A stretch of DNA of 64,000 nt from Eledone cirrhosa (lineage: Eukaryota), in contig CAXHJY010000996.1 in assembly GCA_964016885.1 (NCBI GenBank), positions 92,873 to 156,872 of the forward strand, written 5' to 3'. Numbering within the stretch: the stretch's first letter is position 1; each line of letters begins with the position of its first letter. The position numbers and the translations under genes were made by a program. The notes beneath the pieces were generated by a model, which was not told the origin of the DNA, searched no databases, and saw only the letters and a program-made list of their open reading frames with translations. This document shows, one piece after another, positions 11,075 through 64,000 of this stretch.

Positions 11075-11077
<3 letters not shown>
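10587..11077 (+). mobile_element. 5'-truncated CR1-group LINE 3' end
   Basis: [24 protein letters not shown] / [28 protein letters not shown] 19-bp duplication at 10681-10718 causes a frameshift. Tail ggtggtgccccagcatggcc...gaaacaggtaaaagagtaaaagag. Confidence 0.85.
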
Positions 11078-11171
<94 letters not shown>

Positions 11172-11212
11172 CATATATATATATACATATATATATATAC
11201 ACATATATATAT

Positions 11213-11252
<40 letters not shown>

Positions 11253-11258
<6 letters not shown>

Positions 11259-11605
11259 ATATAATGTATTTTGCAATACACTTTATGCTTAATTAAAAGC
11301 ATTTTGAAGACCGTATGCTATTGTTTTAGAGTAGTGACAAATTCACTTACTTTAATCTCAGCAAACAGGGGAGATAAGCCGACAAGGCCTTGTTTCGCTT
11401 TTGTTGAAGCTTATCAAGGCTAACTACCCCTCCTGTCTACTGAGATTACTGATGTTATATTCTTATAGAATTCTAGTAAATAATCAGGAACTGATTATAC
11501 AGAGCGATTGTTGGTCAGGCAGAAATTAAGAATTAGAATTGGAGCTCTGAAATAGCAATACATATATGGATGTATATATAATGTATTTTGCAATACACTT
11601 TATGC

Positions 11606-11612
<7 letters not shown>
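11253..11612 (-). mobile_element. 317-bp HHR-bearing monomer with a 43-bp terminal direct repeat; distant relative of the 310-bp array
   Basis: Direct repeat 11253-11295 equals 11570-11612; shares cattttgaagacc, ggcagaaatta and gctctgaaatagc in the same order with the 310-bp unit. Confidence 0.82.
11377..11421 (-). ncRNA. Type I hammerhead ribozyme, U3-A8 core
   Basis: Minus strand: agcc UUGAUAA gctt caacaa aagc GAAA caaggccttg UC ggct; palindromic stem III. Confidence 0.85.
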
Positions 11613-11641
<29 letters not shown>

Positions 11642-11839: not shown

Positions 11840-12103
11840 ATCAACCTCCCCGGAGTTGACTGGTCCACAAACAGCCTGCCACCAGGTTCTTCTGCCTCAA
11901 CCTCTGACAGGGAAACAGACCCTCCATCTCAACTCTACTTTTGAAAAGCAGAAGAACTGCGAAACCGGTAAAGGAACCAAATAAATAAACATATTTAAAA
12001 AAAAAATAAGACTCCAGTTGCATTTTCGATTTCATCTTTTTTTGTTTATACTTTCACTCGTGTAGGACACCACGGTTATTTTTGATTTTGTAAAAAACCT
12101 CAC

Positions 12104-12110
<7 letters not shown>
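11840..12110 (+). mobile_element. Short HHR-bearing element (same family as 16011-16370), HHR at 11938-11973
   Basis: ctt TTGAAAA gcag aagaa ctgc GAAA ccgg TA aag; TA-flanked. Confidence 0.78.
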
Positions 12111-12185
<75 letters not shown>

Positions 12186-15996: not shown

Positions 15997-16010
15997 GTAT
16001 ATATATATAT

Positions 16011-16370
16011 AAAGAAAACGAGATGAAATCGAAAATGCAACTGGAGTCTTATTTTTTTTAAAAATATATATATTTATTTGGTTCCTTTACCGGTTTCGCA
16101 GTTCTTCTGCTTTTCAAAAGGTGAGTTGAGATGGAGGGTCTGTGGTTTTTCTCACATCTGTGAGAAAAACCACAGACCCTCCATCTCAACTCACCTTTTG
16201 AAAAGCAGAAGAACTGCGAAACCGGTAAAGGAATCAAATAAATATATATATTTTTAAAAAAAATAAGACTCCAGTTGCATATTCGATTTCATCTCTTTTT
16301 CTTTATACTTCCACTCGTGTAGGACATCTCGGTTATTTTTCATTTTGTAAAAAAAACCTCACTTTCTAAT
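16011..16370. mobile_element. Palindromic HHR element with arms of about 140 bp centred near 16157; HHRs at 16084-16121 (-) and 16194-16231 (+)
   Basis: cctt TTGAAAA gcag aagaa ctgc GAAA ccgg TA aagg in both arms. Confidence 0.82.
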
Positions 16371-16396
16371 GTATATATATATATATATATATATAT

Positions 16397-57523: not shown

Positions 57524-57572
<49 letters not shown>

Positions 57573-58005
57573 AATATAGACATAGAATATTCGAAAATAT
57601 TCTGTATGTTTATAATAAACATTTTGAAGACCTAATCGCTATAGAATAGAATACGTCACGTATTACAATTAGATTCTCGATAAAAGCAAGGGAAGTAATC
57701 TACGCGTTTCATTCTTATTAGAAAATCTTCAGGACCACATATCCAGTGCTTTTATCGAGAATGACACAGCTAGAGACTTATAGAATACTTAGCTGTGTAC
57801 ATGAACTGGTTTGAAAGAGCGGTTGCCGGTCCGGCAGAAATTAGAAATTGGAATAAATGCTCTGAAATAGCGATATATATGTGAATATAGACATAGAATA
57901 TTCGAAAATATTCTGTATGTTTATAATAAACATTTTGAAGACCTAATCGCTATAGAATAGAATACGTCACGTATTACAATTAGATTCTCGATAAAAGCAA
58001 GGGAA

Positions 58006-58048
58006 GTAATCTACGCGTTTCATTCTTATTAGAAATCTTCAGGACCAC
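58006..58048 (-). ncRNA. Type I hammerhead, representative of 19 minus-strand copies
   Basis: Minus strand: gtggtc CUGAAGA t ttct aata agaa t GAAA cgcg UA gattac, closed by a 16-bp helix attctcgataaaagca / tgcttttatcgagaat. Confidence 0.85.
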
Positions 58049-61000
58049 ATATCCAGTGCTTTTATCGAGAATGACACAGCTAGAGACTTATAGAATACTT
58101 AGCTGTGTACATGAACTGGTTTGAAAGAGCGGTTGCCGGTCCGGCAGAAATTAGAAATTGGAATAAATGCTCTGAAATAGCGATATATATGTGAATATAG
58201 ACATAGAATATTCGAAAATATTCTGTATGTTTATAATAAACATTTTGAAGACCTAATCGCTATAGAATAGAATACGTCACGTATTACAATTAGATTCTCG
58301 ATAAAAGCAAGGGAAGTAATCTACGCGTTTCATTCTTATTAGAAATCTTCAGGACCACATATCCAGTGCTTTTATCGAGAATGACACAGCTAGAGACTTA
58401 TAGAATACTTAGCTGTGTACATGAACTGGTTTGAAAGAGCGGTTGCCGGTCCGGCAGAAATTAGAAATTGGAATAAATGCTCTGAAATAGCGATATATAT
58501 GTGAATATAGACATAGAATATTCGAAAATATTCTGTATGTTTATAATAAACATTTTGAAGACCTAATCGCTATAGAATAGAATACGTCACGTATTACAAT
58601 TAGATTCTCGATAAAAGCAAGGGAAGTAATCTACGCGTTTCATTCTTATTAGAAATCTTCAGGACCACATATCCAGTGCTTTTATCGAGAATGACACAGC
58701 TAGAGACTTATAGAATACTTAGCTGTGTACATGAACTGGTTTGAAAGAGCGGTTGCCGGTCCGGCAGAAATTAGAAATTGGAATAAATGCTCTGAAATAG
58801 CGATATATATGTGAATATAGACATAGAATATTCGAAAATATTCTGTATGTTTATAATAAACATTTTGAAGACCTAATCGCTATAGAATAGAATACGTCAC
58901 GTATTACAATTAGATTCTCGATAAAAGCAAGGGAAGTAATCTACGCGTTTCATTCTTATTAGAAATCTTCAGGACCACATATCCAGTGCTTTTATCGAGA
59001 ATGACACAGCTAGAGACTTATAGAATACTTAGCTGTGTACATGAACTGGTTTGAAAGAGCGGTTGCCGGTCCGGCAGAAATTAGAAATTGGAATAAATGC
59101 TCTGAAATAGCGATATATATGTGAATATAGACATAGAATATTCGAAAATATTCTGTATGTTTATAATAAACATTTTGAAGACCTAATCGCTATAGAATAG
59201 AATACGTCACGTATTACAATTAGATTCTCGATAAAAGCAAGGGAAGTAATCTACGCGTTTCATTCTTATTAGAAATCTTCAGGACCACATATCCAGTGCT
59301 TTTATCGAGAATGACACAGCTAGAGACTTATAGAATACTTAGCTGTGTACATGAACTGGTTTGAAAGAGCGGTTGCCGGTCCGGCAGAAATTAGAAATTG
59401 GAATAAATGCTCTGAAATAGCGATATATATGTGAATATAGACATAGAATATTCGAAAATATTCTGTATGTTTATAATAAACATTTTGAAGACCTAATCGC
59501 TATAGAATAGAATACGTCACGTATTACAATTAGATTCTCGATAAAAGCAAGGGAAGTAATCTACGCGTTTCATTCTTAATAGAAATCTTCAGGACCACAT
59601 ATCCAGTGCTTTTATCGAGAATGACACAGCTAGAGACTTATAGAATACTTAGCTGTGTACATGAACTGGTTTGAAAGAGCGGTTGCCGGTCCGGCAGAAA
59701 TTAGAAATTGGAATAAATGCTCTGAAATAGCGATATATATGTGAATATAGACATAGAATATTCGAAAATATTCTGTATGTTTATAATAAACATTTTGAAG
59801 ACCTAATCGCTATAGAATAGAATACGTCACGTATTACAATTAGATTCTCGATAAAAGCAAGGGAAGTAATCTACGCGTTTCATTCTTATTAGAAATCTTC
59901 AGGACCACATATCCAGTGCTTTTATCGAGAATGACACAGCTAGAGACTTATAGAATACTTAGCTGTGTACATGAACTGGTTTTGAAAGAGCGGTTGCCGG
60001 TCCGGCAGAAATTAGAAATTGGAATAAATGCTCTGAAATAGCGATATATATGTGAATATAGACATAGAATATTCGAAAATATTCTGTATGTTTATAATAA
60101 ACATTTTGAAGACCTAATCGCTATAGAATAGAATACGTCACGTATTACAATTAGATTCTCGATAAAAGCAAGGGAAGTAATCTACGCGTTTCATTCTTAT
60201 TAGAAATCTTCAGGACCACATATCCAGTGCTTTTATCGAGAATGACACAGCTAGAGACTTATAGAATACTTAGCTGTGTACATGAACTGGTTTGAAAGAG
60301 CGGTTGCCGGTCCGGCAGAAATTAGAAATTGGAATAAATGCTCTGAAATAGCGATATATATGTGAATATAGACATAGAATATTCGAAAATATTCTGTATG
60401 TTTATAATAAACATTTTGAAGACCTAATCGCTATAGAATAGAATACGTCACGTATTACAATTAGATTCTCGATAAAAGCAAGGGAAGTAATCTACGCGTT
60501 TCATTCTTATTAGAAATCTTCAGGACCACATATCCAGTGCTTTTATCGAGAATGACACAGCTAGAGACTTATAGAATACTTAGCTGTGTACATGAACTGG
60601 TTTGAAAGAGCGGTTGCCGGTCCGGCAGAAATTAGAAATTGGAATAAATGCTCTGAAATAGCGATATATATGTGAATATAGACATAGAATATTCGAAAAT
60701 ATTCTGTATGTTTATAATAAACATTTTGAAGACCTAATCGCTATAGAATAGAATACGTCACGTATTACAATTAGATTCTCGATAAAAGCAAGGGAAGTAA
60801 TCTACGCGTTTCATTCTTATTAGAAATCTTCAGGACCACATATCCAGTGCTTTTATCGAGAATGACACAGCTAGAGACTTATAGAATACTTAGCTGTGTA
60901 CATGAACTGGTTTGAAAGAGCGGTTGCCGGTCCGGCAGAAATTAGAAATTGGAATAAATGCTCTGAAATAGCGATATATATGTGAATATAGACATAGAAT

Positions 61001-63395
61001 ATTCGAAAATATTCTGTATGTTTATAATAAACATTTTGAAGACCTAATCGCTATAGAATAGAATACGTCACGTATTACAATTAGATTCTCGATAAAAGCA
61101 AGGGAAGTAATCTACGCGTTTCATTCTTATTAGAAATCTTCAGGACCACATATCCAGTGCTTTTATCGAGAATGACACAGCTAGAGACTTATAGAATACT
61201 TAGCTGTGTACATGAACTGGTTTGAAAGAGCGGTTGCCGGTCCGGCAGAAATTAGAAATTGGAATAAATGCTCTGAAATAGCGATATATATGTGAATATA
61301 GACATAGAATATTCGAAAATATTCTGTATGTTTATAATAAACATTTTGAAGACCTAATCGCTATAGAATAGAATACGTCACGTATTACAATTAGATTCTC
61401 GATAAAAGCAAGGGAAGTAATCTACGCGTTTCATTCTTATTAGAAATCTTCAGGACCACATATCCAGTGCTTTTATCGAGAATGACACAGCTAGAGACTT
61501 ATAGAATACTTAGCTGTGTACATGAACTGGTTTGAAAGAGCGGTTGCCGGTCCGGCAGAAATTAGAAATTGGAATAAATGCTCTGAAATAGCGATATATA
61601 TGTGAATATAGACATAGAATATTCGAAAATATTCTGTATGTTTATAATAAACATTTTGAAGACCTAATCGCTATAGAATAGAATACGTCACGTATTACAA
61701 TTAGATTCTCGATAAAAGCAAGGGAAGTAATCTACGCGTTTCATTCTTAATAGAAATCTTCAGGACCACATATCCAGTGCTTTTATCGAGAATGACACAG
61801 CTAGAGACTTATAGAATACTTAGCTGTGTACATGAACTGGTTTGAAAGAGCGGTTGCCGGTCCGGCAGAAATTAGAAATTGGAATAAATGCTCTGAAATA
61901 GCGATATATATGTGAATATAGACATAGAATATTCGAAAATATTCTGTATGTTTATAATAAACATTTTGAAGACCTAATCGCTATAGAATAGAATACGTCA
62001 CGTATTACAATTAGATTCTCGATAAAAGCAAGGGAAGTAATCTACGCGTTTCATTCTTATTAGAAATCTTCAGGACCACATATCCAGTGCTTTTATCGAG
62101 AATGACACAGCTAGAGACTTATAGAATACTTAGCTGTGTACATGAACCTGGTTTGAAAGAGCGGTTGCCGGTCCGGCAGAAATTAGAAATTGGAATAAAT
62201 GCTCTGAAATAGCGATATATATGTGAATATAGACATAGAATATTCGAAAATATTCTGTATGTTTATAATAAACATTTTGAAGACCTAATCGCTATAGAAT
62301 AGAATACGTCACGTATTACAATTAGATTCTCGATAAAAGCAAGGGAAGTAATCTACGCGTTTCATTCTTATTAGAAATCTTCAGGACCACATATCCAGTG
62401 CTTTTATCGAGAATGACACAGCTAGAGACTTATAGAATACTTAGCTGTGTACATGAACTGGTTTGAAAGAGCGGTTGCCGGTCCGGCAGAAATTAGAAAT
62501 TGGAATAAATGCTCTGAAATAGCGATATATATGTGAATATAGACATAGAATATTCGAAAATATTCTGTATGTTTATAATAAACATTTTGAAGACCTAATC
62601 GCTATAGAATAGAATACGTCACGTATTACAATTAGATTCTCGATAAAAGCAAGGGAAGTAATCTACGCGTTTCATTCTTATTAGAAATCTTCAGGACCAC
62701 ATATCCAGTGCTTTTATCGAGAATGACACAGCTAGAGACTTATAGAATACTTAGCTGTGTACATGAACTGGTTTGAAAGAGCGGTTGCCGGTCCGGCAGA
62801 AATTAGAAATTGGAATAAATGCTCTGAAATAGCGATATATATGTGAATATAGACATAGAATATTCGAAAATATTCTGTATGTTTATAATAAACATTTTGA
62901 AGACCTAATCGCTATAGAATAGAATACGTCACGTATTACAATTAGATTCTCGATAAAAGCAAGGGAAGTAATCTACGCGTTTCATTCTTATTAGAAATCT
63001 TCAGGACCACATATCCAGTGCTTTTATCGAGAATGACACAGCTAGAGACTTATAGAATACTTAGCTGTGTACATGAACTGGTTTGAAAGAGCGGTTGCCG
63101 GTCCGGCAGAAATTAGAAATTGGAATAAATGCTCTGAAATAGCGATATATATGTGAATATAGACATAGAATATTCGAAAATATTCTGTATGTTTATAATA
63201 AACATTTTGAAGACCTAATCGCTATAGAATAGAATACGTCACGTATTACAATTAGATTCTCGATAAAAGCAAGGGAAGTAATCTACGCGTTTCATTCTTA
63301 TTAGAAATCTTCAGGACCACATATCCAGTGCTTTTATCGAGAATGACACAGCTAGAGACTTATAGAATACTTAGCTGTGTACATGAACTGGATAT

Positions 63396-63438
63396 GTGGT
63401 CCTGAAGATTTCTAATAAGAATGAAACGCGTAGATTAC
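63396..63438 (+). ncRNA. Type I hammerhead in the inverted arm
   Basis: gtggtc CTGAAGA tttctaataagaat GAAA cgcg TA gattac. Confidence 0.85.
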
Positions 63439-63705
63439 TTCCCTTGCTTTTATCGAGAATCTAATTGTAATACGTGACGTATTCTATTCTATAGCGATTA
63501 GGTCTTCAAAATGTTTATTATAAACATACAGAATATTTTCGAATATTCTATGTCTATATTCACATATATATCGCTATTTCAGAGCATTTATTCCAATTTC
63601 TAATTTCTGCCGGACCGGCAACCGCTCTTTCAAACCAGTTCATGTACACAGCTAAGTATTCTATAAGTCTCTAGCTGTGTCATTCTCGATAAAAGCACTG
63701 GATAT

Positions 63706-63748
63706 GTGGTCCTGAAGATTTCTAATAAGAATGAAACGCGTAGATTAC
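63706..63748 (+). ncRNA. Type I hammerhead in the inverted arm, second copy
   Basis: Same motif, offset by 310. Confidence 0.85.
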
Positions 63749-64000
63749 TTCCCTTGCTTTTATCGAGAATCTAATTGTAATACGTGACGTATTCTATTCT
63801 ATAGCGATTAGGTCTTCAAAATGTTTATTATAAACATACAGAATATTTTCGAATATTCTATGTCTATATTCACATATATATCGCTATTTCAGAGCATTTA
63901 TTCCAATTTCTAATTTCTGCCGGACCGGCAACCGCTCTTTCAAACCAGTTCATGTACACAGCTAAGTATTCTATAAGTCTCTAGCTGTGTCATTCTCGAT

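What the first reader, a model, noticed from the sequence alone, without database searches (positions are those of the whole stretch)
11253..11612. A 1.14-mer of a 317-bp HHR element: footprint of reverse transcription around a circle
Seen: a 43-bp direct repeat at both ends (period 317), the HHR in the middle rather than at an end, an extended helix around it (taatctcag..caggggag / ctcctg..ctgagatta), and motifs colinear with the 310-bp unit. Inference: a cDNA that passes the cleavage site and overshoots its own start needs a circular or multimeric template. This gives two diverged members of one retrozyme lineage, one as 1.1 copies and one as more than 20.
Basis: partly seen in the sequence, partly recalled or inferred. 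Interest (0 to 1): 0.72.

Follow-up and report, generated by a model that had tools for sequence, protein, structure and literature searches.

The report
Penelope-copied hammerhead retrozyme insertion
This 360-base stretch is one truncated copy of an abundant non-coding repeat carrying a predicted self-cutting RNA motif, and the ends and shared mutations of its sister copies suggest that a Penelope-type jumping-gene enzyme copied it, likely by running more than once round a small RNA circle.

Summary
Confirmed. 11253-11612 is 1.14 copies of a 317-nt unit, RNA on the minus strand, with an exact 43-bp terminal repeat and a type I hammerhead (U3-A8 core, palindromic stem III; covariation across 15 relatives). 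It is 66% identical and colinear with the 310-nt unit. The repeat is unit sequence, not a target-site duplication. Across 94 sampled insertions, 3' ends fall at two sites about 130-140 and 160-175 nt past the predicted cut, 5' ends vary, and the target is (TA)n. Two-arm insertions carry one end of each kind (44 of 48). Autonomous Neptune-type Penelope elements here show the same footprint (10 of 10). 147 of 165 arms cross the cut site, arms reach 6.5 units, and rare variants are fixed in every pass. This favours Penelope-driven reverse transcription of a continuous template, most likely a circle (about 0.6). An uncut multimer remains possible, as some arrays mix unit types. No RNA data; partner family not identified. 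A new member of the animal non-LTR retrozymes. The scan noted this mechanism before on other DNA of this genome.

The parts
11253..11612 (-). Single-arm insertion, 1.14 units of the 317-nt retrozyme; RNA 5' end at 11612 (unit position 86), 3' end at 11253 (unit position 128; positions counted from the predicted cut)
11253..11295 (-). 43-bp terminal repeat, RNA 3' copy (unit 86-128), ending at the inner start site
11570..11612 (-). 43-bp terminal repeat, RNA 5' copy: the overshoot past the start, like a very short pseudo-LTR
11371..11431 (-). Type I hammerhead: U3-A8 core 11417-11411, stem II 11410-11397, palindromic stem III 11393-11382, predicted cut 11381/11380
11432..11448 (-). 5' strand of the 17-bp helix enclosing the hammerhead
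11353..11369 (-). 3' strand of the 17-bp helix (unit 12-28); excess of arm 5' ends at unit 11-20
11532..11567 (-). Internal copy of the 'tail' (unit 131-166) between the inner start site (AU repeat, 11562-11567) and the outer start site (11532)
11077..11252 (.). (TA)n target tract at the RNA 3' end
11613..11637 (.). (TA)n tract at the RNA 5' end
57562..63391 (-). Sister family: arm of 18.8 copies of the 310-nt unit, inner 3' end in (TA)n
63387..64000 (+). Second, inverted arm of the 310-nt insertion (2.0 units, cut by the contig end)
11915..12111 (+). Separate insertion: 3' end with hammerhead of an autonomous Neptune-type Penelope family (candidate class of mobiliser, no sequence similarity to the unit)
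16008..16375 (.). Separate two-arm insertion of the same Penelope family, one inner and one outer end

Best explanation
The element is a 5'-truncated copy of a non-coding, hammerhead-bearing 317-nt repeat family, likely inserted into a (TA)n tract by a Penelope-type reverse transcriptase/endonuclease that likely copied a small RNA circle for 1.14 turns. Shown from sequence: the family, the two fixed 3' sites, variable 5' ends, the (TA)n target, head-to-head arms with one inner and one outer end, read-through of the hammerhead cut site, and one haplotype per insertion in most cases. Inferred: multi-unit loci are transcribed; paired hammerheads cut (the palindromic stem III suits a dimer); monomers are ligated into circles; a Neptune-type enzyme nicks both strands of (TA)n; each DNA end primes cDNA inside the RNA, one at the inner AU-repeat site and one about 35 nt further 3'; each polymerase runs on through the hammerhead until it stops; the two cDNAs join 5' to 5'. 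The window copy is a single inner-start arm. Odds: retrozyme moved by Penelope-type target-primed reverse transcription about 0.9; monomer circle as the main template about 0.6.
For: Family: 1465 first-look candidates, 39 scored, full-length hits 97-99% identical. Of 165 arms in 94 insertions, 79 end at the outer site, 67 at the inner, 19 elsewhere. Two-arm insertions with both ends canonical are inner/outer in 44 of 48 (317 family; p 8e-10) and 19 of 20 (310 family). An autonomous family with a 938-aa RT + GIY-YIG frame has a U3-A8 hammerhead, (TA)n target and inner/outer ends in 10 of 10 two-arm insertions. 147 of 165 arms cross the cut site, 115 exceed one unit, and 2 of 165 end within 3 nt of the cut. 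In the least biased subset 51 of 57 arms cross. The cut junction is unchanged in 191 of 223 passes, with no recurrent scar. 17 rare variants in 13 insertions are fixed in every pass, 10 of them in both arms, e.g. L205 7/7 and L208 6/6. Multi-site 310 haplotypes are fixed across 15-18 full units and both arms. No inversion junction is inherited between 69 two-arm insertions; the two repeats are independent. Papers: circles shown for coral, mussel and axolotl retrozymes (PMC7229834); two internal start sites and both-strand priming in a Penelope enzyme (PMC11167929).
Against: No RNA data, so expression, cleavage and circles are untested. Some insertions mix unit types: L193 interleaves two haplotypes (AABAB), L203 has two stem III variants in both arms, the arms of L204 differ, L171 and L172 carry an indel in 4 of 18 and 6 of 11 full units, the window's own 310 array repeats one variant 7 units apart, and L117/118 has one variant in 7 of 31 units. 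Arm 5' ends are in excess at unit 11-20 (17 against 5.4 expected) and raised at 311-317 (4.5 against about 2.0 per 1000), which cut, trimmed RNA ends could also give. The autonomous elements show the same two-arm footprint, so two arms do not require a small circle. In PMC11167929 uncut RNA is the main substrate and no reads end at the cut. No sequence link between the units and any of 34 Penelope ends tested (z at most 1.9). 'Rare' means at most 2 of 94 sampled insertions out of well over a thousand.
Confidence: 0.6

Rival explanations
1. Same Penelope-type insertion, but the template is an uncut linear multimer (or a multimeric circle) transcribed from a tandem source locus; the 43-bp overshoot is read-through into the next unit, as in a Penelope pseudo-LTR.
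For: Mixed-unit insertions L193, L203, L171, L172. Source-sized arrays exist: 6.5 units in the 317 family and 30.9 in the 310 family. Uncut RNA is the main substrate in vitro (PMC11167929). Axolotl retrozymes also accumulate multimers (PMC7229834).
Against: Arrays could only shrink from parent to daughter. Many haplotypes are fixed in all units of an insertion, which needs a one-unit bottleneck. Minor variants are rarely shared between arms in the same pass (8 of 211, against 6 of 397 in other passes; unit 112-141 and 304-313 left out). No inherited junctions.
Confidence: 0.27
2. The polymerase copies cut linear monomers and jumps from the 5' end of one to the 3' end of the same or another monomer.
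For: Explains haplotype switches within an arm (L193) and the excess of 5' ends shortly before the cut site.
Against: The junction is exact in most passes (191 of 223 identical, the rest scattered substitutions) and only 2 of 165 arms end within 3 nt of the cut (about 3 expected). Most insertions hold one haplotype. Singletons show no A>G excess on the RNA strand (31 A>G, 35 T>C).
Confidence: 0.1
3. The 43 bp are a target-site duplication or a local DNA-level duplication, and the multi-unit copies arose by satellite-type expansion after insertion.
For: Local expansion probably acted on some long arrays (L117/118), and the preprint 10.64898/2026.07.22.740005 proposes local amplification for retrozyme arrays.
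Against: The 43 bp lie inside the unit at unrelated loci. Non-integer arms with two fixed 3' ends and an inverted second arm occur in arrays under 1% diverged.
Confidence: 0.03

Closest known systems
Animal non-LTR retrozymes (Cervera and de la Pena 2020, PMC7229834; Li, Clavereau and Pollet 2026, bioRxiv 10.64898/2026.07.22.740005)
   Same: Non-coding unit of about 300 nt, low GC, type I hammerhead, self-paired fold, dispersed monomers to multimers, co-occurring with Penelope elements; the circle-plus-Penelope route is proposed in both papers.
   Different: U3-A8 core and a 12-nt palindromic stem III. Insertions are two-armed with inner/outer ends in (TA)n and no discernible target-site duplication. 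No sequence homology to a pseudo-LTR found here, unlike 24 of 57 Xenopus families matched to known elements. Circles not tested.
Penelope-like elements, Neptune clade; structure in Craig et al. 2021 (PMC8557442) and Arkhipova et al. 2013 (PMC3846280); mechanism in Frangieh et al. 2024 (PMC11167929)
   Same: Partial tandem copies, inverted 5'-truncated second copy, a 30-40 bp tail at one end only, microsatellite target, two internal start sites downstream of a hammerhead.
   Different: No reading frame, so non-autonomous. Both arms can be many units long. The inner start is an AU repeat that matches the target, whereas the lizard enzyme starts at non-homologous sites.
Minimal, dimeric hammerheads of Penelope elements (Cervera and de la Pena 2014, PMC4209133)
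   Same: Palindromic stem III suited to dimers; the U3-A8 core variant is described there.
   Different: Here the hammerhead sits at the tip of a long covarying helix in a small repeat unit, with a 4-bp stem II.

Membership tests
Animal non-LTR retrozyme | Type I hammerhead in each unit | tested here: met
   Core, stems I-III present; 93% of cells paired, 18 of 27 pairs change on both sides, C3-G8/U3-A8 covary (structure taken from the window copy, so controls lean towards it); core TTGATAA in 210 of 220 passes. No Rfam match.
Animal non-LTR retrozyme | Tandem unit of about 150-450 bp, low GC, non-coding, no LTR features | tested here: met
   317-nt unit, arms up to 6.5 units; no frame of 120 aa lies within the element. 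PBS and PPT were not searched.
Animal non-LTR retrozyme | Stable self-paired fold as a circle | tested here: met
   Circular fold -79.3 kcal/mol, z -5.9 against 60 shuffles.
Animal non-LTR retrozyme | Self-cleavage and accumulation of linear and circular monomer RNA | not testable with these tools
   Needs bench work or RNA reads; none available.
Animal non-LTR retrozyme | Target-site duplication (reported as present only in some) | tested here: inconclusive
   Both flanks are (TA)n; a duplication cannot be read.
Penelope-like element insertion footprint | 5' truncation, partial tandem, inverted second copy, tail at one end | tested here: met
   69 of 94 insertions two-armed; 44 of 48 inner/outer; tail about 35 nt.
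Penelope-like element (autonomous) | Reading frame with reverse transcriptase and GIY-YIG endonuclease | tested here: not met
   Absent from the element; present in other families of the genome.
Derivative of a Penelope pseudo-LTR | Sequence homology to the pseudo-LTR of an autonomous family | tested here: inconclusive
   None with 34 hammerhead-bearing ends from 44 Penelope loci; only 150 of 10596 endonuclease candidates were scored, so the partner may be unsampled.

The most novel reading that the evidence does not exclude
A Penelope enzyme pair loads at two fixed sites on one 317-nt ribozyme RNA circle and rolls round it from both ends of a DNA break, so each insertion is a readable record of rolling-circle reverse transcription with built-in inner/outer asymmetry.
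Probability: 0.4. Interest if true: 0.72.

Novelty: new member of a known kind. Interest (0 to 1): 0.5.

Why it matters
How animal retrozymes are copied into new sites has been proposed (circle plus a borrowed Penelope enzyme), but the papers read here give co-occurrence and phylogeny, not the insertion footprint. These families supply that footprint with counts: two mapped start sites, a (TA)n target, strict inner/outer pairing shared with autonomous elements, and per-insertion haplotypes. That defines a 317-nt substrate for an in vitro test of circle against multimer, and makes the one-ended Penelope 'tail' a testable consequence of two priming events. The single window copy is an ordinary truncated member.

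Tried and rejected
RNA evidence: no RNA holder listed; contigs of three runs of unrecorded kind only show that the family is present. Rfam: no match. Classical twin priming on one linear RNA: rejected, since only 3 of 44 outer arms end at unit 125-141 and the outer arm is the longer in 25 of 44. Inherited junctions: two repeated pairs among 69 (more than the permutation mean of 0.12 at exact match) proved independent, one pair from different subfamilies and one with different crossover points in the helix. Chimeric retrozyme-plus-Penelope insertions as a pointer to the partner: L071/L246 rejected, because the Penelope part is old (best other copy 91%, frame broken) while the retrozyme arm is 98.6% identical to the window unit; L063/L247 is ambiguous, 1 case in 94. 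In-register sharing of variants between arms: weak. Sequence homology to Penelope ends: none. Sequence look-up in earlier findings: nothing. The window ends at the contig end, so the 310 array could not be followed.

Full report
Observation. The 360 bp at 11253-11612 lie between two (TA)n tracts and carry an exact 43-bp repeat at both ends, period 317. The minus strand holds a type I hammerhead with a U3-A8 core, 4-bp stem II and a 12-nt palindromic stem III; the predicted cut is between 11381 and 11380. The strand folds better than all 100 shuffles (z -5.9). The minimum-energy fold pairs the core away; the hammerhead fold costs about 5 kcal/mol more as a monomer, and stem III self-pairs as a dimer at -19.5 kcal/mol. 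Among 15 chosen relatives the long helix, stem II and the 3-8 core pair covary (18 of 27 pairs change on both sides; slid controls 2-5). Rfam finds nothing at gathering score. The 310-nt unit is 66% identical and colinear.

Family and sampling. The genome holds many copies: 1465, 497 and 2154 first-look candidates in three searches, 38-40 scored each. I analysed 94 insertions; nine loci fetched twice and L191 (same as L030) were dropped. The sample is biased: select long copies, selects an exact 63-nt match on two contigs. In the subset, 24 of 32 insertions have an arm longer than one unit and 51 of 57 arms cross the cut site, so a 1.14-unit copy is typical.

Ends. Counting from the cut, 79 of 165 arms end at the outer site (159-176), 67 at the inner site (125-141) and 19 elsewhere; 62 of 79 outer-type end motifs are followed by (TA)4 within 16 nt. 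The inner site is an AU repeat that merges with the target. 5' ends are spread over the unit, with excess at 11-20 and 81-90; 2 of 165 lie within 3 nt of the cut. 69 of 94 insertions have two head-to-head arms. With both ends canonical, 44 of 48 pair an inner with an outer end; in the 310 family 19 of 20 do. The window copy is a single arm with an inner end at unit 128 and a 5' end at unit 86.

Mobiliser. The genome has many GIY-YIG matches (150 of 10596 candidates scored). L173 holds a 938-aa RT + GIY-YIG frame between two hammerhead-bearing pseudo-LTRs. Its CX4CX2C linker fits the Neptune clade as described in a passage of PMC8557442; no tree was built. This family ends 82 or 150 nt after its cut in (TA)n, and 10 of 10 two-arm insertions among 35 loci are inner/outer. 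Two of its fragments lie in the window (11915-12111, 16008-16375). So the footprint is that of Penelope-type target-primed reverse transcription, matching the tail and inverted copies in PMC8557442 and PMC3846280 and the two internal start sites in PMC11167929. Which family moves the retrozyme is open: there is no sequence similarity and the apparent chimeras did not hold up.

Template. Arms run through the cut site without a recurrent scar and reach 6.5 units (317) and 30.9 units (310), so the template is continuous. For a monomer circle: passes within an insertion agree at subfamily sites (26 of 452 same-arm and 48 of 763 cross-arm pairs differ, against about 154 and 263 expected), 17 rare variants are fixed in all passes, and 310 haplotypes are fixed across whole arrays and both arms. 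Against a pure monomer circle: L193, L203, L204, L171, L172, L117/118 and the window's own 310 array mix unit types. These need template switching, multimeric templates or later DNA-level exchange. I put the circle at about 0.6, an uncut multimer at about 0.27, jumping between cut monomers at about 0.1.

Comparison and novelty. It meets the sequence-testable features of animal non-LTR retrozymes and works like a non-autonomous Penelope passenger; it is not an autonomous element. PMC7229834 proposes circle plus Penelope enzyme and the 2026 preprint adds co-occurrence and phylogeny. In six paper searches and the texts read I found no count of inner/outer pairing or of per-insertion haplotypes in retrozymes. 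Seen: preprint 10.64898/2026.07.22.740005 parts 1-3 of 5; PMC11167929 parts 1-2 of 4; PMC7229834 parts 2-4 of 6; passages only of PMC8557442, PMC4209133 and PMC3846280. No supplements were read; a model figure in the supplement of PMC7229834 and the preprint's tables may bear on novelty. Earlier notes of this scan describe the same mechanism for the 310 family and others on other DNA of this genome; my reading was formed before that call, and none matched this sequence.

Verdict. Observation confirmed, interpretation supported with the circle still inferred. New member of a known kind; interest 0.5, because it makes a proposed copying step directly testable.

Noticed in passing
window 11915-12111 and 16008-16375; L173: Ends of an autonomous Neptune-type Penelope family with a U3-A8 hammerhead; a full 938-aa frame with both pseudo-LTRs in L173; its tail is about 68 nt, longer than the usual 30-40.
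   Followed up: yes
window 48973 (minus strand): Another minimal hammerhead with a C3-G8 core and palindromic stem III, from a different family.
   Followed up: no
window 57562-63391: The 310 array repeats one substitution 7 units apart, and units with 1-nt insertions also fall 7 units apart: possible higher-order duplication or multimeric template.
   Followed up: partly
L193; L203; L171; L172: Insertions that interleave two unit types, in L171 and L203 in both arms and partly in register from the 3' end.
   Followed up: partly
L063/L247, around 960-1120 of L247: A retrozyme arm joined head to head, without a TA tract, to the 3' end of the L173 Penelope family; possible co-insertion or deletion beside an older copy.
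   Followed up: partly
L036, L132, L161-L168: Older sister subfamilies (65-85% identical over the ribozyme region) with switched core pair and changed palindromic stem III; the lineage has several subfamilies between the 317 and 310 units.
   Followed up: partly
L131-L186: At least four Penelope families, each with its own minimal hammerhead about 75-210 nt upstream of a (TA)n junction.
   Followed up: partly
window 31909-33139: Three tandem copies of a 405-bp unit, 97% alike; not examined.
   Followed up: no
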